Origin: Escherichia coli
GTDB taxonomy: Bacteria; Pseudomonadota; Gammaproteobacteria; Enterobacterales; Enterobacteriaceae
Strand: one strand, 5' to 3'
NCBI RefSeq assembly: GCF_046105845.1
Contig: NZ_CP151004.1
Length of the DNA stretch: 64,000 bases
The notes beneath the pieces are model-generated. The model saw only the letters and a program-made list of their open reading frames with translations. It did no database searches and had not been told where the DNA came from. Position 1 is the first letter of the stretch. Each line of letters begins with the position of its first letter. The translations under genes and the position numbers were made by a program. Below, piece by piece: positions 3,054 through 63,430 of this stretch.

Positions 3054-3971
3054 ATGTCTAAACGATTACCACCGCTAAATGCCTTACGAGTTTTTGATGC
3101 CGCAGCACGCCATTTAAGTTTCACTCGCGCAGCAGAAGAGCTTTTTGTGACCCAGGCCGCAGTAAGTCATCAAATCAAGTCTCTTGAGGATTTTCTGGGG
3201 CTAAAACTGTTCCGCCGCCGTAATCGTTCACTCCTGCTGACCGAGGAAGGTCAAAGCTATTTCCTCGATATCAAAGAGATATTTTCGCAATTAACCGAAG
3301 CGACGCGTAAACTCCAGGCCCGTAGCGCCAAGGGGGCGTTGACGGTCAGTTTACTCCCCAGTTTCGCCATTCATTGGTTGGTTCCGCGACTTTCCAGCTT
3401 TAATTCAGCTTATCCGGGAATTGACGTTCGAATCCAGGCGGTTGATCGTCAGGAAGATAAGCTGGCGGATGATGTTGATGTGGCGATATTTTATGGTCGG
3501 GGCAACTGGCCGGGGCTACGGGTGGAAAAACTGTACGCCGAGTATTTATTGCCGGTGTGTTCGCCGCTACTGCTGACTGGCGAAAAACCCTTGAAGACCC
3601 CGGAAGATCTGGCTAAACATACGTTATTACATGATGCGTCGCGTCGTGACTGGCAGACATATACTCGCCAATTGGGGTTAAATCATATCAACGTTCAGCA
3701 AGGGCCAATTTTTAGCCATAGCGCCATGGTGCTGCAAGCGGCTATTCACGGGCAGGGAGTGGCGCTGGCAAATAACGTGATGGCGCAATCTGAAATCGAG
3801 GCCGGACGTCTTGTTTGCCCGTTTAATGATGTTCTGGTCAGTAAAAATGCTTTTTATCTGGTTTGTCATGACAGTCAGGCAGAACTGGGTAAAATAGCCG
3901 CCTTTCGCCAATGGATCCTGGCGAAAGCCGCTGCTGAACAAGAAAAATTCCGCTTTCGTTATGAACAATAA
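3054..3971 (+). CDS. gcvA: LysR-family transcriptional regulator GcvA (glycine cleavage system activator)
   Basis: 305 aa; N-terminal LysR HTH (LRVFDAAARHLSFTRAAEELFVTQAAVSHQIKSLE). Confidence 0.9.
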   Translation: MSKRLPPLNALRVFDAAARHLSFTRAAEELFVTQAAVSHQIKSLEDFLGLKLFRRRNRSLLLTEEGQSYFLDIKEIFSQLTEATRKLQARSAKGALTVSLLPSFAIHWLVPRLSSFNSAYPGIDVRIQAVDRQEDKLADDVDVAIFYGRGNWPGLRVEKLYAEYLLPVCSPLLLTGEKPLKTPEDLAKHTLLHDASRRDWQTYTRQLGLNHINVQQGPIFSHSAMVLQAAIHGQGVALANNVMAQSEIEAGRLVCPFNDVLVSKNAFYLVCHDSQAELGKIAAFRQWILAKAAAEQEKFRFRYEQ

Positions 3972-6734: not shown

Positions 6735-8153
6735 TCACACTTCCTCTATAAATTCAGGTTCAGTTTGCGGGTAGAAATAACGGTACTGATAATGAATCTG
6801 CGCGCGGGCTTCTTCCGGGCTGTTAAATTCCCCTACGCCATACCAACCGAACAGCGCAGCTCCTGCGACGGTCGTTTCTGCGTCGTCGAGAACTTTTACC
6901 GGAATATCAAGCATATTGGCTTTAATCTGATTCCACAATGTGTTGCGACTTCCTCCGCCGACTAACAATAATTCAGAGGCTTTAAAGTGCCCGATTTTTT
7001 CCAGCATCTGTAGATTGCGCTGTAATTGCGCGGTTAACCCTTCCAGCGCCGCGCGATAGAAATGCCCCCGCGTGGTATTAAGCGTCACTCCTTGCCAGCC
7101 AGCGTTCTGACACGACAATAAATCACACTGCATTTTCACGCCATCCGCGCCAGGCGCGATCAGACGAGCCTCTTCAATCAACATTTGCCAGGGAGTTTCA
7201 GCCGTCCAGAACAGTTTTCTCACCCATTCCAGCACGCCGGATGCCAGCCATTGCATACCTGGGTTATACAACCCTGCCTGACTATCCAGTTCGCAGGTGG
7301 AACCGGCATACTGACTTAACAGCGAAGTATCAACCTGGGCGCTACGGACCATTAAAATTTCCCATGTACCGGAAGAGAGCACGGGTTCATTTTGTTCAGC
7401 ACCAGCGCCAAAAAGGGCGAACTGGGTATCGTGACCTGCGGAAATCACCGGTATGCCAACGGGTAAGCCGAGCATTGCTGCGGCGCTGTTCTGTAACGTA
7501 CCAATCTGTTCACCCGCCTCCACCAGACGAGGGAAGAGTCGGCGTGGAATACCGGTGGCGTGTAAAATTTGCGGACTGAAATCGCGTTGCTGGATATCCA
7601 GCATCTGGCTGGTTCCGGCCATCGTGATATCAGTAGTGAATTCGCCGGTTAAACGGTGGTTAATCAGCGACGAAATAAAGAGCCAGGCGTGCGCGCGTTC
7701 CAGCAGTTGTGGATGATTTTCTTTCAACCACACCAACTTATATAACGTATTGAAACTAAAGGCTCCGACTCCAGAAATAGCCTGCAACTGCTGTGCGGAG
7801 ATCAACCGTTCAATATTGTCCATTACCGCTGCTGTTCGCGGACATTTCCAGCTAATGATCGGATAGAGCAGATTGCCTTGCTTATCTACCAGAGCGCCAT
7901 CCACACCAAAGGTGGTGACGGCGATACCGCGGATGTGGCAATCAGTCAGTTCACTATTGATTTGCCGACAGCAATCAGCAAAGCGTTGCAAAATGGCGTC
8001 TAAAGACCACTGGTGCCAGGTGTTGTTTTCCATCGCGATATCGCTGGCATTAGGCGTTGAGGCGCGGGCAACAATTTTTCCCTGCCGATTAACCGCGATG
8101 GCCCTGACATTGGTCGCGCCACAGTCGAGTACCAGGATAACTTCTTGTTTCAT
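6735..8153 (-). CDS. fucK: L-fuculokinase FucK (FGGY carbohydrate kinase)
   Basis: ORF 6735..8183 trimmed to [17 protein letters not shown] start; FGGY kinase N-terminal motif. Confidence 0.85.
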
Positions 8154-8261: not shown

Positions 8262-10037
8262 TTAACGCTTGTACAACGGGCCGTAGTTCTGGCAAGCGCG
8301 GTAATCCTGGCCTTCAATATCCATGCCGTGCGCGGCCCAGGCAGAAGGACGATATACTTTGGTCTCTTCAACGTTGTGCATACATACCGGGATACGCAGC
8401 ATGGAGGCGAGAGTGATAAAGTCTGCGCCAACGTGGCCGATGGTCAGAACCCCGTGGTTAGCGCCCCAGTTCGCCATTACCGAATACACATCCGTAAACG
8501 GCCCTTTACCGGTGAGGCGCGGTGCAAACCAGGTGGTTGGCCAGGTTGAGTTGGTGCGTTTGTTGAGGATGTCATGCACATCCTTCGGCAATTCCACGCT
8601 CCAGCCTTCCGCGATTTGCAGTACCGGTCCGAGTCCTTTGATGATGTTGACACGGGTCATGGTGAACGGGACGCCGCCTTCGGTAAGGAAGCGGGAAGAG
8701 TAACCGCCGCCACGGAAGTATTCGTGGATCGCCGGGCACCATTCGGTAGCGGCGAGGCAAGCGTCAGCCTCTTGCTGAGAGATTTCCCAGTGTGGCTTCA
8801 TCGTCGGGTTACCTTCGCTGTCGCGTTGTTTACAGGAACCGTCCAGCGCAGCAGAACCTGAGTTGATCAAATGGATGATGCCGTGTTCTGCCAGTCCGTC
8901 CAGTTTATGCCCCGTTACACGCTCAATTGCTTCTGGTGACCAGTAGGTACGCACATCGGCAAATACCTGAGCGGTGCCGGTGAGCTGGTGACCCATTAGC
9001 ATTGCCACGCCGTTAAGACTGTCGTTTTCAGTCGCCACGACAAAGGGTTCGCGCACGCCATTCCAGTCAAATGAACTGTTGAGGATCGCTTCGGCGGTAT
9101 CGCCATTGGGATATTGATCGGTCCAGTGGCGTTGTCCCTGGAAGCCCGCAGCGATGGCGTTGTAGCCAAGTGATTCTTCCACGCGACCAATATCGGCCAG
9201 TTTGCTGTTGCCTTGCATCATGTCGCGGATACACATCGCCATCAGTAAACTTTCGCGCAGAACTGCGCGGCTTTGCTCGGCATTGCGTTGATACTGTTTG
9301 TTATTTTCATCTTCGCCATAGCGGAAGTTTTTATCAGCCCAGGCCAGCGCCATTTCCAGTTCGGCTTCGTCGTAAATCTTCTGATCGATACGGCGACGCA
9401 GTTCGGTCATATCCACCGCCTGGACTTTCATTCCCAGCCAGGATTCAAAGAAGTTGTGATCAACAATGGAACCGGCGATACCCATCGAAACGCCGCCCAG
9501 CGACAGATAGCTTTTACCTTTCATGCTGGCGACTGCTAAACCGGCGCGGGCAAAGCGCAGCAGTTTTTCTTCAACATCGGCAGGAATCGATGTGTCATCG
9601 GCATCCTGAACATCATGACCGTAAATGGAGAATGCCGGGATGCCTTTCTGGCTGTGAGCTGCCAGAGCCGCTGCCAGGTAAACAGCGCCGGGACGTTCAG
9701 TGCCGTTAAAGCCCCAAATGGCTTTCGGGCGGGTTGGATCCATGTCGATGGTTTCACTGCCATAGCACCAGCAAGGCGTTACCGTAATGGTGAGGCCTAC
9801 ATTCTGACTGCTGAATTTTTCTTCGCAAGCAGCGGCTTCAGCCATACCCGCGATACAGGTATCGGAAATGACACACTCGACGGCAGCTCCGCAGGCATGG
9901 CGCAGTTTCTCGGTCAGCAGTGCAGCCGTGGCTTTCGCCATATTCATTGTTTGTTCTTCAAGCGACTCACGAACACCCATGCGACGACCGTCAATAACCG
10001 GGCGGATACCAATTTTCGGTAAGCTGATTTTTTTCAT
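8262..10037 (-). CDS. fucI: L-fucose isomerase FucI
   Basis: 591 aa, [31 protein letters not shown]-terminus. Confidence 0.9.
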
Positions 10038-41272: not shown

Positions 41273-42643
41273 GAGTTCCCCGCGCCAGCGGGGATAAACC
41301 GTTGTCCTGCTGAACCAAGTAAGCCACTGACAAGAGTTCCCCGCGCCAGCGGGGATAAACCGCATTATATCCTGTGCGTCGTTCATTTATTTACGAGTTC
41401 CCCGCGCCAGCGGGGATAAACCGGCCGCCGCATGGCAAAACAAACATCGGGGTACGAGTTCCCCGCGCCAGCGGGGATAAACCGGAACGGCGGCTATACG
41501 GATTCGACAGGTCAGCGAGTTCCCCGCGCCAGCGGGGATAAACCGGATTGAATGCAGATGGTTCAATGCTCGCATTCGAGTTCCCCGCGCCAGCGGGGAT
41601 AAACCGCCACGCGTGCTTTGAGTGGATGGTGTCGCTTGGAGTTCCCCGCGCCAGCGGGGATAAACCGATACATTATTAAGCGGGCAATTTTTCCAGTTTG
41701 AGTTCCCCGCGCCAGCGGGGATAAACCGAACGGCACGGCCTGCCGCCACGTCCCGCAGCTGAGTTCCCCGCGCCAGCGGGGATAAACCGGGGCCGTGTTT
41801 TCTAACGGATTCGCACATTGCGAGTTCCCCGCGCCAGCGGGGATAAACCGCAGCAGTTCAATACTGAAATCAACATGCCGATGAGTTCCCCGCGCCAGCG
41901 GGGATAAACCGCGCGGTGGGGTTTCATTCGCATCAATTCAAGGGAGTTCCCCGCGCCAGCGGGGATAAACCGGCGGTGAGTGAGAAAATCAGGACGGCTG
42001 CGAGGAGTTCCCCGCGCCAGCGGGGATAAACCGCGCCAAATATGCTGGTGGACTTCTACGCCGATGAGTTCCCCGCGCCAGCGGGGATAAACCGCTATCG
42101 ACGGTCAAGAAAATCCACCGGAAGAAGAGTTCCCCGCGCCAGCGGGGATAAACCGGCAGCAATATATTTGACATAATAGATAACCCGGAGTTCCCCGCGC
42201 CAGCGGGGATAAACCGACGCCAGGGGAGATATAACGCGCCTGTTATGGGAGTTCCCCGCGCCAGCGGGGATAAACCGGTCTTAACTAAAAGATGACCATT
42301 CAGTCGCAGGAGTTCCCCGCGCCAGCGGGGATAAACCGCGGCCCATAATATTAATATAATCCACATGAGGGAGTTCCCCGCGCCAGCGGGGATAAACCGC
42401 GCCGGAAATCATCGTTCTGTAATTGTCTAGCGAGTTCCCCGCGCCAGCGGGGATAAACCGCCCTGTTTGTTATTCCCATTATACGTATAAGAGAGTTCCC
42501 CGCGCCAGCGGGGATAAACCGCTTCTGGCTGGAGGTGGAGAAACGGAGGCAATGAGTTCCCCGCGTTAGCGGGGATAAACCGGATTTAGAGAGCCAGACG
42601 TTGGTCAGTTATTCGAGTTCCCCGCGTCAGCGGGGATAACCAT
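41273..42643 (+). CRISPR. Type I-E CRISPR array, 23 repeats / 22 spacers
   Basis: 29-bp repeat GAGTTCCCCGCGCCAGCGGGGATAAACCG recurs at exactly 61-bp period from 41273 to 42615; 32-bp unique spacers; repeat 22 has C>T (GCGTTAGCGGGG); terminal repeat degenerate (GCGTCAGCGGGGATAACCA). Confidence 0.97.
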
Positions 42644-58840: not shown

Positions 58841-61507
58841 ATGGAACCTTTTAAATATATATGTCATTACTGGGGGAAATCCTCAAAAAGCCTGACGAAA
58901 GGAAATGATATTCATCTGTTGATTTATCATTGCCTGGATGTTGCAGCTGTTGCAGATTGCTGGTGGGATCAATCAGTCGTACTACAAAATGCTTTTTGCC
59001 GAAATGAAATGCTATCAAAACAGAAGGTGAAAGCCTGGCTGTTATTTTTCATTGCCCTTCATGATATCGGAAAGTTTGATATACGATTCCAATATAAATC
59101 AGCAGAAAGTTGGCTGAAATTAAATCCTGCAACGCCATCACTTAATGGTCCATCAACACAAATGTGCCGTAAATTTAATCATGGTGCAGCCGGTCTGTAT
59201 TGGTTTAACCAGGATTCACTTTCAGAGCAATCTCCCGGGGATTTTTTCAGTTTTTTTGATGCCGCTCCTCATCCTTATGAGTCCTGGTTTCCATGGGTAG
59301 AGGCCGTTACAGGACATCATGGTTTTATATTACATTCCCAGGATCAAGATAAGTCGCGTTGGGAAATGCCAGCTTCTCTGGCATCTTATGCTGCGCAAGA
59401 TAAACAGGCTCGTGAGGAGTGGATATCTGTACTCGAAGCATTATTTTTAACGCCAGCTGGGTTATCTATAAACGATATACCACCTGATTGTTCATCACTG
59501 TTAGCAGGTTTTTGCTCGCTTGCTGACTGGTTAGGTTCCTGGACCACAACGGATACCTTTCTATTCAAAGAAGATGCACCTTCAGGCATACAAGCGCTAA
59601 GAACATATTTTCAGTATAGACAACAGGATGCGTGTCGGGTACTGGAGTTGAGTGGCCTTGTATCAAATAAGCGTAGTTATGACGGCGTACATGCCTTACT
59701 GGACAATGGCTATCAACCAAGACAATTACAGGTGTTGGTTGATGCTCTTCCTACAGCTCCCGGGCTGACGGTGATTGAGGCACCTACGGGATCAGGTAAA
59801 ACCGAAACAGCGCTGGCCTATGCCTGGAAACTTATTGACCAACAACTTGCGGAGAGTGTTATTTTTGCCCTCCCTACACAAGCTACTGCAAATGCAATGC
59901 TCAGTAGAATGGAAGCGAACGCGAGCCGTTTATTTACCTCCCCAAATCTTATTCTTGCTCATGGTAATTCACGTTTTAACCACCTTTTTCAATCAATAAA
60001 ATCACGCGCATTTACTGAGCAGGGGCAAGAAGAAGCATGGGTTCAGTGTTGCCAATGGTTGTCACAAAGTAATAAGAAAGTGTTTCTAGGGCAAATAGGC
60101 GTTTGCACGATTGATCAGGTATTGATATCGGTATTGCCAGTTAAACATCGCTTTATCCGTGGTTTGGGAATTGGTCGAAGTATTTTAATTGTTGATGAAG
60201 TTCATGCTTACGACACGTATATGAACGGCTTGCTGGAGGCTGTGCTCAAGGCTCAGGCTGATGTGGGAGGGAGTGTTATTCTTCTTTCCGCAACTCTACC
60301 AATGAAACAAAAACAGAAACTTCTGGATACTTATGGTCTGCATACAGATCCAGAGGAAAATAACTCCGCATATCCACTCATTAACTGGCGAGGTGTGAAT
60401 GGTGCACAACGTTTTGATCTGTTAGCTCATCCAGAACAACTCCCGCCCCGCTTTTCGATTCGGCCAGAACCTATTTATTTAGCTGACATGTTACCTGACC
60501 TTAGGATGTTAGAGCGAATGATCGCAGCGGCAAATGCGGGTGCACAAGTCTGTCTTATCTGCAATTTGGTTGATGTTGCACAACTATGCCACCAACGGTT
60601 AAAGGAACTAAATAACACGCAAGTAGATATAGATTTGTTTCATGCGCGCTTTACGCTGAACGATCGTCGTGAAAAAGAGAATCGAGTTATTAGCAATTTC
60701 GGCAAAAATGGGAAGCGAAATGTTGGACGGATACTTGTCGCCACCCAGGTCGTGGAACAATCACTCGACGTTGATTTTGATTGGTTAATTACTCAGCATT
60801 GCCCCGCAGATTTACTTTTCCAACGATTGGGCCGTTTACATCGCCATCATCGCAAATATCGTCCCGCTGGTTTTGAGGTTCCTCTTGCCACCGTTTTGCT
60901 GCCTGATGGCGAAGGTTACGGACGACATGAGCATATTTATAGCAACGTTAGAGTCATGTGGCGGACGCAGCAACATATTGAGGAACTTAATGGAGCATCC
61001 TTATTTTTCCCCGATGCCTACCGGCAATGGCTGGATAGCATTTACGATGATGCTGAAATGGATGAGCCAGAATGGGTCATCAAAGGCATGGATAAGTTTG
61101 AAAGCGCTGAGTGTGAAAAGAGGTTCAAGGCTCGCAAGGTTCTGCAGTGGGCTGAAGAATATAGCTTGCAGGATAACGATGAAACAATTCTTGCGGTAAC
61201 GAGGGATGGGGAAATGAGCCTGCCATTATTGCCTTATTTACAAACGTCTTCAGGTAAACAACTGCTCGATGGCCAGGTCTACGAGGACCTAAGTCATGAA
61301 CAGCAGTATGAGGCGTTAGCACTTAATCGCGTCAATGTACCCTTCACCTGGAAACGTAATTTTTCTGAAGTAGTAGATGAAGATGGGTTACTTTGGCTGG
61401 AAGGGAAACAGAATCAGAATGGATGGATCTGGCAGGGTAATAATATTGTTATTACCTACACTCGGGATGAAGGGATGACCAGAGTCATCCCTGCAAATCC
61501 CAAATAA
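58841..61507 (+). CDS. cas3: CRISPR-associated nuclease/helicase Cas3 (type I-E)
   Basis: 888 aa; HD nuclease motif (FIALHDIGKFD), SF2 helicase Walker A (EAPTGSGKTETAL) and DEAH-type box (LIVDEVHAYD). Confidence 0.95.
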   Translation: MEPFKYICHYWGKSSKSLTKGNDIHLLIYHCLDVAAVADCWWDQSVVLQNAFCRNEMLSKQKVKAWLLFFIALHDIGKFDIRFQYKSAESWLKLNPATPSLNGPSTQMCRKFNHGAAGLYWFNQDSLSEQSPGDFFSFFDAAPHPYESWFPWVEAVTGHHGFILHSQDQDKSRWEMPASLASYAAQDKQAREEWISVLEALFLTPAGLSINDIPPDCSSLLAGFCSLADWLGSWTTTDTFLFKEDAPSGIQALRTYFQYRQQDACRVLELSGLVSNKRSYDGVHALLDNGYQPRQLQVLVDALPTAPGLTVIEAPTGSGKTETALAYAWKLIDQQLAESVIFALPTQATANAMLSRMEANASRLFTSPNLILAHGNSRFNHLFQSIKSRAFTEQGQEEAWVQCCQWLSQSNKKVFLGQIGVCTIDQVLISVLPVKHRFIRGLGIGRSILIVDEVHAYDTYMNGLLEAVLKAQADVGGSVILLSATLPMKQKQKLLDTYGLHTDPEENNSAYPLINWRGVNGAQRFDLLAHPEQLPPRFSIRPEPIYLADMLPDLRMLERMIAAANAGAQVCLICNLVDVAQLCHQRLKELNNTQVDIDLFHARFTLNDRREKENRVISNFGKNGKRNVGRILVATQVVEQSLDVDFDWLITQHCPADLLFQRLGRLHRHHRKYRPAGFEVPLATVLLPDGEGYGRHEHIYSNVRVMWRTQQHIEELNGASLFFPDAYRQWLDSIYDDAEMDEPEWVIKGMDKFESAECEKRFKARKVLQWAEEYSLQDNDETILAVTRDGEMSLPLLPYLQTSSGKQLLDGQVYEDLSHEQQYEALALNRVNVPFTWKRNFSEVVDEDGLLWLEGKQNQNGWIWQGNNIVITYTRDEGMTRVIPANPK

Positions 61508-61921
61508 CTTCGGGAATGATTGGTATCAATGACGATAACAAGACCAATAACGGTTTATCCCTACTTAAGTAGGGAAGGTGCACAATGTACATCTTCTTTT
61601 AATTTCCCGGTATGAGATTTTATATTCACAGTATGAATATTTTATGTAATAAAATTCATGGTGATTATTATAACTAAAAATTTCTTTGATAATAAAACGA
61701 ATAACTTGCAGATTTGAAATGCATGCATTATTGTCTTTAAACAATTCAACACATCTTAATATATGCATAGGTTAATTGTATTAAACCAATGGATATATTT
61801 TTGCAGTGAATGTGATTATTGAATTAATTACGCCGTATTTTTTCTTTGTTTTTACCGATAACGGAAGTGTGCCGACGTATAGAAATGCAGGAGAAATGTC
61901 GGAGCATATGAAGGAGAACAA
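61508..61921 (+). promoter_or_regulatory. cas3-cse1 intergenic region containing the Cascade operon promoter (Pcas)
   Basis: 414 bp, strongly AT-rich, non-coding, directly upstream of cse1; in E. coli K-12 this region is H-NS-silenced and LeuO-activated (established knowledge; exact promoter elements not mapped here). Confidence 0.6.
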
Positions 61922-63430
61922 ATGAATTTGCTTATTGATAACTGGATCCCTGTACGCCCGCGAAACGGGGGGAAAGTCCAAATCATAAATCTGCAATCGC
62001 TATACTGCAGTAGAGATCAGTGGCGATTAAGTTTGCCCCGTGACGATATGGAACTGGCCGCTTTAGCACTGCTGGTTTGCATTGGGCAAATTATCGCCCC
62101 GGCAAAAGATGACGTTGAATTTCGACATCGCATAATGAATCCGCTCACTGAAGATGAGTTTCAACAACTCATCGCGCCGTGGATAGATATGTTCTACCTT
62201 AATCACGCAGAACATCCCTTTATGCAGACCAAAGGTGTCAAAGCAAATGATGTGACTCCAATGGAAAAACTGTTGGCTGGGGTAAGCGGCGCGACGAATT
62301 GTGCATTTGTCAATCAACCGGGGCAGGGTGAAGCATTATGTGGTGGATGCACTGCGATTGCGTTATTCAACCAGGCGAATCAGGCACCTGGTTTTGGTGG
62401 TGGCTTTAAAAGCGGTTTACGTGGAGGAACACCTATAACCACCTTCGTATGTGGGATCGATCTTCGCTCGACGGTGTTACTCAATGTCCTCACAATACCT
62501 CGTCTTCAAAAACAATTTCCCAATGAATCAAATACGGAAAACCAACCTACCTGGATTAAGCCTGTCAAGCCCAATGAATCTGTGCCAGCTTCGTCAATTG
62601 GGTTTGTCCGTGGCTTATTCTGGCAACCAGCGCATATTGAATTATGCGATCCCATTGGGATTGGTAAATGTTCTTGCTGTGGACAGGAAAGCAATTTGCG
62701 TTATACAGGTTTTCTTAAGGAAAAATTTACCTTTACAGTTAATGGGCTATGGCCCCATCCGCATTCCCCTTGTCTGGTAACAGTCAAGAAAGGGGAGGTT
62801 GAGGAAAAATTTCTTGCTTTCACCACCTCCGCACCATCATGGACACAAATCAGCCGAGTTGTGGTAGATAAGATTATTCAAAATGAAAATGGAAATCGCG
62901 TGGCGGCGGTTGTGAATCAATTCAGAAATATTGCGCCGCAAAGTCCTCTTGAATTGATTATGGGGGGATATCGTAATAATCAAGCATCTATTCTTGAACG
63001 GCGTCATGATGTGTTGATGTTTAATCAGGGGTGGCAACAATACGGCAATGTGATAAACGAAATAGTGACTGTTGGTTTGGGATATAAAACAGCCTTACGC
63101 AAGGCGTTATATACCTTTGCAGAAGGGTTTAAAAATAAAGACTTCAAAGGGGCCGGAGTCTCTGTTCATGAGACTGCAGAAAGGCATTTCTATCGACAGA
63201 GTGAATTATTAATTCCCGATGTACTGGCGAATATTAATTTTTCCCAAGCTGATGAGGTAATAGCTGATCTACGAGACAAACTTCATCAATTGTGTGAAAT
63301 GCTATTTAATCAATCTGTAGCTCCCTATGCACATCATCCTAAATTAATAAGCACATTAGCGCTTGCCCGCGCCACGCTATACAAACATTTACGGGAGTTA
63401 AAACCGCAAGGAGGGTCATCAAATGGCTGA
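61922..63430 (+). CDS. casA: Cascade large subunit Cse1 (CasA, Cas8e)
   Basis: 502 aa MNLLIDNWIPVRPRNGGKVQIINLQSLYCSRDQWRLSLPRDD, recognised as E. coli Cse1. Confidence 0.95.
   Translation: MNLLIDNWIPVRPRNGGKVQIINLQSLYCSRDQWRLSLPRDDMELAALALLVCIGQIIAPAKDDVEFRHRIMNPLTEDEFQQLIAPWIDMFYLNHAEHPFMQTKGVKANDVTPMEKLLAGVSGATNCAFVNQPGQGEALCGGCTAIALFNQANQAPGFGGGFKSGLRGGTPITTFVCGIDLRSTVLLNVLTIPRLQKQFPNESNTENQPTWIKPVKPNESVPASSIGFVRGLFWQPAHIELCDPIGIGKCSCCGQESNLRYTGFLKEKFTFTVNGLWPHPHSPCLVTVKKGEVEEKFLAFTTSAPSWTQISRVVVDKIIQNENGNRVAAVVNQFRNIAPQSPLELIMGGYRNNQASILERRHDVLMFNQGWQQYGNVINEIVTVGLGYKTALRKALYTFAEGFKNKDFKGAGVSVHETAERHFYRQSELLIPDVLANINFSQADEVIADLRDKLHQLCEMLFNQSVAPYAHHPKLISTLALARATLYKHLRELKPQGGSSNG

What the first reader, a model, noticed from the sequence alone, without database searches (positions are those of the whole stretch)
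61551..61579. Solitary CRISPR-repeat-like palindrome 44 bp downstream of cas3
The plus strand reads cggtttatccctacttaagtagggaaggt. On the minus strand this is ACCTTCCCTACTTAAGTAGGGATAAACCG, which matches the 29-bp repeat at 19 of 29 positions. The conserved parts are the TTCCC...GGGATAAACCG flanks, while the repeat's internal palindrome CCCCGCGCCAGCGGGG is replaced by a different perfect palindrome, CCCTACTTAAGTAGGG. The element is in the opposite orientation to the array. It could be a relic repeat, a terminator for cas3, or part of an antisense promoter region; I do not know of a described function.
Basis: seen in the sequence. Interest (0 to 1): 0.5.

Follow-up and report, generated by a model that had tools for sequence, protein, structure and literature searches.

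The report
crRNA-like cas regulator (CreR) mini-array
The palindrome after cas3 is not a lone relic: it is the first of two degenerate CRISPR repeats that form a one-spacer "mini-array", predicted to make a guide RNA that turns the Cascade complex onto its own promoter region, a kind of element already described in 2023.

Summary
The sequence is as reported. On the minus strand, 61551-61579 reads ACCTTCCCTACTTAAGTAGGGATAAACCG and matches the E. coli repeat at 19/29 positions. That count alone is not above chance, because three unrelated 29-mers in the window also reach 19/29. The structured similarity is far above chance: an exact 8-nt 5' handle, and an in-register 7-bp stem with a tetraloop.

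The element is not solitary. A second degenerate repeat (61491-61519, overlapping the cas3 stop codon) lies 31 nt downstream on the same strand.

The 31-nt pseudo-spacer has its best match in the whole window 122 nt upstream in the same intergenic region. That site carries the type I-E PAM AAG and matches 14 of 15 base-pairing positions; two of the three mismatches are at the flipped-out positions 6 and 12.

Divergent E. coli haplotypes keep the pairing through a change on both sides at position 7. Marinomonas shanghaiensis (Cas3 56% identical) has the same layout, with a different spacer that matches its own AAG-flanked site.

This is a CreR-type crRNA-like regulatory gene. Shmakov et al. 2023 predicted one for an E. 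coli I-E locus. Liu et al. 2023 validated the class for a Salmonella I-E CreR. My verdict is that the element is real and probably functional, but already known.

The parts
61551..61579 (-). PsiR1, the proximal repeat-like unit (the finding itself): ACCTTCCCTACTTAAGTAGGGATAAACCG. It has a 7-bp stem with a UUAA tetraloop, followed by an exact 8-nt 5'-handle ATAAACCG.
   Evidence: Its fold is identical in register to the true repeat (-10.3 kcal/mol). It is invariant in all E. coli haplotypes sampled. The core TCCCTAC-N4-GTAGGGATAAACCG is conserved in Marinomonas.
61520..61550 (-). PsiS, the 31-nt spacer-like sequence TTATTGGTCTTGTTATCGTCATTGATACCAA. It is flanked by CCG, not by a PAM.
   Evidence: Three haplotypes were seen: G7/G12 (window), G7/A12 (K-12) and A7/A12 (HCP4S3_I4, AHM8C212RI).
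61491..61519 (-). PsiR2, the distal degenerate repeat TCATTCCCGAAGTTATTTGGGATTTGCAG. It keeps TTCCC...GGGAT and the hairpin, the handle is degenerate, and it overlaps the cas3 stop codon (61505-61507).
   Evidence: It has the same dot-bracket structure as the repeat (-8.5 kcal/mol). It is only 14/29 identical to the repeat.
61705..61707 (-). PAM of the predicted target: AAG on the minus strand (CTT on the plus strand).
   Evidence: It is present in all E. coli haplotypes sampled.
61688..61704 (-). Predicted protospacer TTATTCGTTTTATTATC. It matches PsiS at positions 1-5, 7-8, 10-11 and 13-17, with mismatches at 6, 9 and 12. The guide would pair with the plus strand, about 215-234 bp upstream of the casA ATG.
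   Evidence: It is the best non-self match in the whole window, on both strands. None of 20000 shuffled spacers reached its score in the intergenic region.
61580..61720 (-). Leader and promoter region of the antisense (creR / 'anti-Pcas') transcript. This is inferred; the exact transcription start is not determined here.
   Evidence: Two consensus-level sigma-70 matches lie on the minus strand, but that is no more than the shuffles give. The literature describes an anti-Pcas RNA of 150-200 nt overlapping the cas3 end (PMC7074321, PMC10011333).
58841..61507 (+). cas3 (888 aa). Its last codons and stop codon are overlapped by PsiR2 on the opposite strand.
   Evidence: annotation of homologous records.
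61922..63430 (+). [quoted passage not shown]
41273..42643 (+). CRISPR array that supplies the canonical repeat: 21 exact copies, one with 2 mismatches, and a terminal copy matching 25/29 at 42615-42643.

Best explanation
The palindrome is PsiR1 of a CreR-type ('Cas-regulating RNA', crRNA-like) mini-array, PsiR1-PsiS-PsiR2. It is encoded antisense at the 3' end of cas3 in the K-12-type E. coli type I-E locus.

Proposed mechanism (all steps inferred, none shown here):
1. The minus strand is transcribed from the promoter previously called anti-Pcas.
2. Cas6e binds the two repeat-like hairpins and cuts at their 3' bases. The product would be a roughly 60-nt RNA made of the 8-nt handle AUAAACCG, the 31-nt PsiS, and a 21-nt hairpin.
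3. This RNA assembles into Cascade like a crRNA.
4. Because PsiS matches its AAG-flanked site at 61688-61707 over only the first ~17 nt, Cascade binds without licensing Cas3 cleavage. It would act as a repressor at the divergent Pcas/anti-Pcas control region.
5. Cascade synthesis would therefore be auto-limited, and would be relieved when bona fide crRNAs or anti-CRISPRs titrate Cascade.

Shown here: the anatomy, the statistics, the conservation and the spacer-target covariation.
For: 1. Repeat likeness beyond chance: exact GGGATAAACCG, TTCCC, and an in-register stem-loop with paired changes C9-G18 to U-A and G10-C17 to A-U.
2. A second repeat-like unit at a 60-nt period on the same strand. 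The motif occurs nowhere else outside the array and is expected 0.13 times per shuffled window.
3. The best PsiS match in 128 kb of sequence lies 122 nt away. It has an AAG PAM and matches 14 of 15 non-flipped positions. Shuffled spacers reached that score in 0 of 20000 trials.
4. Covariation. Haplotype C (L002, L084) has spacer G7 to A together with target G7 to A, and a target T9 to C that restores pairing. Its other target changes fall on positions 6 and 12 (flipped out) and on distal position 17.
5. Orthologous locus in Marinomonas shanghaiensis (Cas3 56%, Cse1 57% identical). The order is the same: cas3 stop, PsiR2, a 32-nt spacer, PsiR1, an AAG-flanked target, then cse1. The spacer is unrelated but matches its own target at positions 1-5, 7-11 and 13-14 (shuffles 4 of 20000). 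Only the PsiR1 core and the TTCCC/GGG of PsiR2 form blocks of identity in an otherwise poorly aligned IGR.
6. The mini-array is present in all 1132 E. coli genomes that carry this intergenic region, at 95% identity or more.
7. Literature. PMC10120712 section 22 describes an E. coli I-E mini-array between cas3 and cas8, transcribed opposite to cas3, with an AAG PAM and a target at the H-NS site upstream of Pcas. bioRxiv 10.1101/2023.03.10.532045 shows Salmonella I-E CreR repressing PcasA through E. coli Cascade. An anti-Pcas RNA of 150-200 nt overlaps the cas3 end.
Against: - I found no paper in the held library that tests the native K-12 element.
- PsiR2 is weak: 14/29 identity and an A-U/G-U-rich stem. 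It is not formed in the MFE fold of the 151-nt antisense RNA.
- In the window and K-12 haplotypes, position 9 is a true mismatch.
- The target lies about 215 bp upstream of the casA ATG. I could not place it relative to the mapped Pcas and anti-Pcas start sites, because Pul 2010 and Westra 2010 are not held.
- The covariation rests on three E. coli haplotypes and one distant species.
- I could not see Fig. 4B of PMC10120712. Identity of my element with theirs is inferred from the text alone.
Confidence: 0.8

Rival explanations
1. Non-functional relic: a decayed fragment of an old array, or an ectopic repeat duplication, kept only because E. coli strains are closely related.
For: PsiR2 is strongly degenerate (14/29). 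E. coli genomes are very similar overall, so 95-100% conservation is weak evidence on its own. Shmakov et al. note that many standalone repeats are spurious.
Against: The spacer matches an AAG-flanked site in the same IGR far better than chance. Pairing is kept between haplotypes by changes on both sides. The same architecture, with a different self-matching spacer, is present in Marinomonas at 56% Cas3 identity.
Confidence: 0.08
2. Transcription terminator or 3'-end stabilising hairpin for cas3 (plus strand), or a terminator of the antisense RNA. The resemblance to the repeat would then be incidental.
For: The element is a stable hairpin 44 nt after the cas3 stop codon. Three hairpins cluster at the cas3 3' end.
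Against: No U-tract follows the stem on either strand, and the terminator scan found 0 sites in 61400-61960. A terminator role does not explain the exact 8-nt handle, the in-register TTCCC, the second unit at a 60-nt period, or the PAM-flanked target. A secondary role in mRNA stability cannot be excluded.
Confidence: 0.05
3. Decoy or sponge: the transcript binds Cas6e/Cascade, like phage Racr or solitary repeat units, and lowers free effector without guiding it to DNA. Alternatively, it is the CreA half of a CreTA addiction module that represses an unseen toxin.
For: PsiR1 keeps every feature expected for Cas6e and Cas5e recognition. RNA anti-CRISPRs made of repeats exist (PMC10651486).
Against: A sponge needs no conserved spacer-target complementarity or PAM. 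No conserved ORF or toxin candidate lies next to the target. The 67-aa minus-strand ORF 61565-61768 is broken by a 13-nt indel in L002. No copy was found in viral contigs.
Confidence: 0.05

Closest known systems
CreR (Cas-regulating RNA) of Salmonella enterica type I-E (Liu et al. 2023, bioRxiv 10.1101/2023.03.10.532045; later Cell Host Microbe, from my own knowledge)
   Same: Both are degenerate mini-CRISPRs (PsiR1-PsiS-PsiR2) in the cas locus. PsiR1 keeps the 8-nt 5' handle and PsiR2 keeps the hairpin. PsiS matches only partially, in its PAM-proximal part, a site flanked by 5'-AAG-3' upstream of casA. The Cascade family is the same; Salmonella CreR was shown to work with E. coli MG1655 Cascade.
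   Different: The spacer and target sequences differ: Salmonella PsiS starts with TAG, has 15 consecutive matches, and its target is about 140 bp upstream of casA. Here the match is interrupted at positions 6, 9 and 12, and the target is about 215 bp upstream. The E. coli PsiR1 stem (CCCTAC/GTAGGG) differs from the host repeat stem. Native function in E. coli has not been tested in any paper I could read.
Regulatory mini-array of the E. coli I-E locus predicted by Shmakov et al. 2023 (PMC10120712, Fig. 4B; published in NAR 2023, from my own knowledge)
   Same: The position is the same (between cas3 and cas8e) and so is the orientation (transcribed opposite to cas3). The proximal repeat is the better conserved one and the distal repeat is degraded. 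The PAM is AAG, the sixth position is tolerated as a mismatch, and the target lies in the H-NS-bound region upstream of Pcas. This is most probably the same element.
   Different: I could not see the figure or the supplements, so sequence identity is inferred. Here I add the haplotype covariation, the Marinomonas orthologue, and the observation that PsiR1 resembles genuine repeats of other I-E lineages more than it resembles the E. coli repeat.
CreA of CreTA modules (Haloarcula type I-B; Li et al. 2021, cited) and the type I-F1 mini-array of P. aeruginosa YL84
   Same: Each is a crRNA-like RNA from a degenerate mini-array that guides Cascade to a partially matching, PAM-flanked promoter site, giving repression without cleavage.
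   Different: CreA represses a toxin gene (creT), and no toxin candidate is seen here. The subtypes, handles and PAMs also differ.
Canonical type I-E CRISPR repeat / crRNA
   Same: The 29-nt unit, the 7-bp stem with tetraloop in the same register, the same 8-nt 5' handle, and the same spacing (a period of 60 nt against 61 nt).
   Different: Only two units are present. No leader or adaptation signals were tested. The stem sequence is different, the distal unit is degenerate, and the spacer targets the host's own cas control region with partial complementarity.

Membership tests
CreR / regulatory mini-array (crRNA-like RNA) | [quoted passage not shown] | tested here: met
   PsiR1 is at 61579..61551, PsiS is 31 nt long, and PsiR2 is at 61519..61491, all on the minus strand between the cas3 stop and casA. 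The motif is unique outside the array.
CreR / regulatory mini-array (crRNA-like RNA) | PsiR1 conserves the 5'-handle nucleotides and PsiR2 conserves the 3' hairpin. | tested here: met
   PsiR1 has 8/8 handle bases. PsiR2 keeps TTCCC...GGGAT and the identical fold, while its handle is degenerate.
CreR / regulatory mini-array (crRNA-like RNA) | PsiS is partially complementary (PAM-proximal, 10 nt or more) to a site with the cognate PAM, near the effector-gene promoter. | tested here: met
   An AAG PAM followed by 14/15 non-flipped positions within 1-17, at 61688-61707 and about 215 bp upstream of casA. It is the best site in the window, and 0 of 20000 shuffles reached it. Its position relative to the mapped Pcas start site is not verified.
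CreR / regulatory mini-array (crRNA-like RNA) | Conservation in related loci, with spacer and target co-varying. | tested here: met
   Three E. coli haplotypes were seen, with a change on both sides at position 7. Marinomonas has an orthologous mini-array with its own self-matching spacer.
CreR / regulatory mini-array (crRNA-like RNA) | The element is transcribed and processed by the Cas6 enzyme into a crRNA-like RNA that loads into the effector. | not testable with these tools
   Only indirect evidence exists: an anti-Pcas RNA of 150-200 nt overlapping the cas3 end is reported in the literature (PMC7074321).
CreR / regulatory mini-array (crRNA-like RNA) | Effector-dependent repression of the cas promoter, relieved by an excess of crRNA or by Acr proteins. 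| not testable with these tools
   This was shown for Salmonella CreR with E. coli Cascade, not for this element.
Bona fide CRISPR array | Multiple near-identical repeats with a leader and variable, foreign-derived spacers. | tested here: not met
   There are only two units, 19/29 and 14/29 identical to the repeat. The single spacer is fixed across 1132 genomes and matches the host IGR.
Intrinsic (Rho-independent) terminator | A G+C-rich stem-loop followed directly by a U-tract. | tested here: not met
   The scan found 0 terminator-like sites in 61400-61960, and the stem is followed by AAGGTGCAC (+) or ATAAACCG (-).
CreTA toxin-antitoxin module | An adjacent toxin gene (creT) whose promoter is the target of the cr-like RNA. 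| tested here: inconclusive
   No conserved ORF lies next to the target, and the 67-aa ORF is frame-broken in L002. A small RNA toxin cannot be excluded from sequence alone.
Rfam CRISPR-DR families | A match to a curated repeat covariance model. | tested here: inconclusive
   There was no hit at E<=10. The true repeats of the array also give no CRISPR-DR hit in this Rfam release, so the test is uninformative.

The most novel reading that the evidence does not exclude
PsiR1 may not be a decayed copy of E. coli's own repeat. It may be an heirloom that travelled with the K-12-type cas operon. Three observations point this way:
- Its stem, CCCTAC/GTAGGG, is identical in Marinomonas.
- It is 23/29 identical to a genuine array repeat found in a metagenome (L101), against 19/29 to the E. 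coli repeat.
- Its target appears to sit on or next to the promoter of its own transcript (the long-unexplained 'anti-Pcas').

If so, creR would repress both itself and Pcas, forming a two-armed feedback node under H-NS/LeuO control. That would explain anti-Pcas. It would also imply that this Cas6e lineage accepts two different stems.
Probability: 0.3. Interest if true: 0.45.

Novelty: already known. Interest (0 to 1): 0.27.

Why it matters
The element gives a concrete role to the enigmatic anti-Pcas transcript of the best-studied CRISPR-Cas locus. It implies that E. coli Cascade levels are set partly by an RNA-guided autorepression loop that senses crRNA load and anti-CRISPR attack.

For annotation, the lesson is that a 'lone' repeat-like hairpin next to cas3 should prompt a search for a degenerate second repeat and for a PAM-flanked partial target.

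The concept, and most probably this very element, were published in 2023. The value here is confirmation plus some added comparative evidence: the haplotype covariation, the Marinomonas orthologue, and the foreign-looking stem. It is not a discovery.

Tried and rejected
- Raw Hamming similarity as a test. It was rejected as insufficient: 19/29 is reached by two unrelated sites plus one overlapping the array.
- Rfam scan of 61300-62000. It gave only chance snoRNA-like hits. The control on the true array shows that Rfam 15 does not detect these repeats at all, so the result is uninformative.
- Terminator hypothesis. No terminator-like site was found.
- Sigma-70 scan. It found two minus-strand matches, one overlapping the target, but that is no more than the shuffles give (2 against 3.1 expected). 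I have not used it as evidence.
- Coding hypothesis for the 67-aa minus-strand ORF 61565-61768. Rejected because a 13-nt indel in L002 breaks the frame.
- Genome-wide Cas3 relatives. Only one E. coli-like contig and two Marinomonas species are close; the other 77 loci are too distant. Their repeats, mostly actinobacterial, were too biased to build a fair covariance model, so none was built.
- The other E. coli I-E variant (L089). Its cas3-casA spacer is 97 bp and has no mini-array.
- Viral contigs. No copy of the PsiR1 core was found.
- Papers and data I could not obtain: Pul 2010, Westra 2010, the NAR version of Shmakov et al., and its supplements. As a result, the mapped Pcas and anti-Pcas start sites and Fig. 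4B could not be checked.

Full report
**Setting.** The window is an E. coli chromosome segment, not K-12 itself. It carries cysJIH, then cas3 (58841-61507, +), a 414-nt intergenic region (IGR), and casA/cse1 (61922-63430, +). A CRISPR array lies at 41273-42582 on the + strand. It has 21 exact copies of GAGTTCCCCGCGCCAGCGGGGATAAACCG, one copy with 2 mismatches, and a terminal copy matching 25/29 at 42615.

**Checking the observation.** The reported bases are there. Read on the minus strand, 61579..61551 is ACCTTCCCTACTTAAGTAGGGATAAACCG, which matches the repeat at 19/29 positions.

Two unrelated 29-mers (plus one that overlaps the array) also score 19/29, and nine score 18/29, among about 128,000 positions.

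What is exceptional is the way the identity is arranged:
- The 11-mer GGGATAAACCG occurs outside the array only here.
- The canonical repeat and the element both fold to ....(((((((....)))))))....... That is a 7-bp stem with a tetraloop at the same positions. Two base pairs differ on both sides: C9-G18 is U-A, and G10-C17 is A-U.
- Of 124,942 non-array 29-mers, 182 have such an in-register hairpin. Only this one has all 8 bases of the 5' handle ATAAACCG.

**It is not solitary.** Reading on along the minus strand, a 31-nt stretch is followed by TCATTCCCGAAGTTATTTGGGATTTGCAG (61519..61491). This unit again has TTCCC-N10-GGGAT and the same predicted fold. The motif TTCCC-N10-GGGAT is expected 0.13 times per dinucleotide-shuffled window. 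It occurs 25 times: 23 in the array, and these two, 60 nt apart on the same strand. The array period is 61 nt. The distal unit overlaps the cas3 stop codon and is only 14/29 identical to the repeat. The locus is therefore a two-repeat, one-spacer mini-array, PsiR1-PsiS-PsiR2, antisense to cas3.

**The spacer has a target next door.** I scored every position of both strands of the window against PsiS positions 1-17. I ignored positions 6 and 12, which type I-E Cascade flips out (established knowledge of the Cascade-crRNA structure). The best non-self site is 61688-61704 on the minus strand, at 14/15. It is preceded by AAG (61707..61705), the canonical E. coli I-E PAM. The next best sites score 12/15 and have no PAM. 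With 20,000 shuffled spacers, none found an AAG-flanked site this good in the 342 nt of the IGR between PsiR1 and casA. The complementarity stops after position 17. This is the pattern described for regulatory guides, which bind but do not license cleavage.

**Conservation and covariation.** The mini-array is present in every one of the 1132 E. coli complete genomes (of 5426) that carry this K-12-type IGR. Five hundred copies are identical to the window and 632 are 95-99% identical. PsiR1 was invariant in all loci I read.

Three spacer/target haplotypes exist:

| Haplotype | Spacer (positions 1-17) | Target (positions 1-17) |
|---|---|---|
| Window type | TTATTGGTCTTGTTATC | TTATTCGTTTTATTATC |
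| K-12 type | TTATTGGTCTTATTATC | TTATTCGTTTTATTATT |
| Divergent type (HCP4S3_I4, AHM8C212RI; IGR about 89% identical) | TTATTGATCTTATTATC | TTATTTATCTTTTTATT |

The window-type and divergent-type targets differ at five of 17 positions. Two of these are positions 6 and 12, which do not pair. One is position 7, which is matched by the same G-to-A change in the spacer. One is position 9, which creates a pair with the spacer's C9. One is distal position 17. In the divergent type, every pairing position from 1 to 16 matches. These are few independent events, but they go in the direction expected for a guide and its target.

**A distant orthologue.** Among one-per-species genomes, this Cas3 has few close relatives. 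In Marinomonas shanghaiensis (Cas3 56% and Cse1 57% identical), the minus strand just after the cas3 stop reads as follows:
- PsiR1: CTTCATCCCTACCACCGTAGGGATAAACCG
- a 32-nt spacer: TCTGTTTTTTAATGAACAGCGAGTAGATGCAA
- PsiR2: TCTGTTCCCCACACCCGTGGGGGTAATAGC, abutting the stop codon

The spacer is unrelated to the E. coli one. It nevertheless matches AAG-TCTGTATTTTATTG, 41 nt upstream of PsiR1 in the same IGR, at positions 1-5, 7-11 and 13-14. Only 4 of 20,000 shuffled spacers did as well. In an alignment of the two IGRs, the clear blocks of identity are the PsiR1 core TCCCTAC...GTAGGGATAAACCGT and the TTCCC/GGG of PsiR2. The sister species M. rhodophyticola has overlapping cas3 and cse1 genes and no room for such an element. 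The same is effectively true of the second E. coli I-E variant, whose IGR is 97 bp.

**What it most likely is and does.** The anatomy fits the class called CreR (Cas-regulating RNA), or regulatory mini-array, point by point. The inferred mechanism is as follows:
1. The minus strand is transcribed.
2. Cas6e cuts at the 3' base of each hairpin.
3. The product is a roughly 60-nt crRNA-like RNA: AUAAACCG, then PsiS, then a 21-nt hairpin.
4. This RNA loads into Cascade.
5. Cascade binds the AAG-flanked, partially matching site between creR and casA, without recruiting Cas3.
6. The divergent control region is repressed.

None of these steps is shown here. Reviews that cite Pul et al. 2010 report an H-NS-repressed 'anti-Pcas' promoter giving a 150-200 nt RNA of unknown role that overlaps the cas3 transcript. 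A transcript of that length that reaches the cas3 stop must start no further upstream than about 61700. The target would then lie on or just upstream of the anti-Pcas promoter, and next to Pcas. This is an inference. I could not read the primary mapping papers, and the consensus promoter scan is no better than shuffles.

**Comparison with what is known.** Shmakov et al. (PMC10120712) report that repeat-like sequences are enriched next to cas3 in I-E loci. They describe mini-arrays with a well-conserved proximal repeat and a degraded distal repeat, transcribed opposite to cas3, whose spacers partially match PAM-flanked sites in the cas8 promoter region. For 'the E. coli I-E locus' they state that the PAM is AAG and that the target overlaps the H-NS site immediately upstream of Pcas. 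They also place the mini-array's likely start region over the LeuO and CRP sites. That description matches what I reconstructed independently, so I take it to be the same element. The figure and supplements were not available to confirm the sequence.

Liu et al. (bioRxiv 10.1101/2023.03.10.532045) showed experimentally that a Salmonella I-E CreR represses its PcasA through E. coli MG1655 Cascade. Its PAM is AAG, it has 15 consecutive matches, and its target lies about 140 bp upstream of casA. They also showed that excess crRNA or AcrIE8 relieves the repression. A 2026 preprint shows that phages copy such RNAs. I found no held paper that tests the native K-12 element.

**Rivals.**
- A canonical terminator is not supported: there is no U-tract and the scan found nothing.
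- A neutral relic does not explain the PAM-flanked target, the covariation or the Marinomonas parallel.
- A pure Cas6e/Cascade sponge, or a CreTA-type antitoxin, cannot be formally excluded. However, a sponge needs no target, and no toxin candidate is visible.

**One extra observation.** PsiR1 is closer to genuine I-E repeats from elsewhere than to the E. coli repeat:

| Compared with PsiR1 | Identity |
|---|---|
| Metagenomic array repeat CTGTTCCCTACATGGGTAGGGATAAACCG (L101) | 23/29 |
| Fibrisoma limi repeat | 22/29 |
| E. coli repeat | 19/29 |

It also shares its exact stem with the Marinomonas PsiR1. This suggests that the mini-array was inherited with this cas operon lineage rather than copied from the resident array. 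That is speculative.

**Verdict.** 'Solitary' is wrong. The element is PsiR1 of a CreR-type regulatory mini-array (confidence about 0.8). It is already described in the literature, so interest is modest.

Noticed in passing
window 61470-61489 (+), inside the last codons of cas3: A perfect 8-bp hairpin, GGGATGAC-CAGA-GTCATCCC, lies just upstream of PsiR2. On the antisense RNA it forms a strong stem directly after the mini-array and could mark the 3' end of the antisense transcript.
   Followed up: partly
L001 (E. coli strain 1506, NZ_CP059288.1) 3100-3860; corresponds to window 61545/61546: An IS1 element is joined exactly 5 nt before PsiR1. PsiR1, the whole control region and casA are missing, and casB follows the IS. 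PsiR2 and most of PsiS remain.
   Followed up: partly
L089 (E. coli 03_3469) 6748-6900 and 9794-9890: The second E. coli I-E cas variant has a hok/gef family gene between cysH and cas3. Its cas3 is a pseudogene with an internal stop, and its cas3-casA spacer is only 97 bp with no mini-array.
   Followed up: partly
L101 (metagenome contig Ga0182739_1109428), about 50-140: A genuine CRISPR array whose repeat, CTGTTCCCTACATGGGTAGGGATAAACCG, shares the CCCTAC/GTAGGG stem and the handle with PsiR1. At least two full repeats and one truncated repeat are present, with 32-nt spacers. The organism is unknown.
   Followed up: partly
L084 (E. coli AHM8C212RI), the cas3 end: In this haplotype the cas3 stop codon TAA, which lies in the loop of PsiR2, is changed to CAG. 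The annotated cas3 is 12 nt longer (2679 against 2667 nt). The PsiR2 stem is untouched.
   Followed up: no
window 42615-42643 (+): The terminal degenerate repeat of the array, GAGTTCCCCGCGTCAGCGGGGATAACCAT, matches the consensus at 25/29 and has a decayed handle. The preceding repeat carries two loop changes.
   Followed up: no
window 61565-61768 (-): A 67-aa ORF on the antisense strand spans the target and ends in the PsiR1 loop. It is probably spurious, because a 13-nt indel in L002 breaks the frame.
   Followed up: partly
L004 (JAEWTL010000007.1, labelled 'MAG: Bacillota bacterium'): This 3.3-kb contig carries a Cas3 96% identical to the E. coli protein and the identical mini-array. It looks like E. 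coli contamination of the bin.
   Followed up: no
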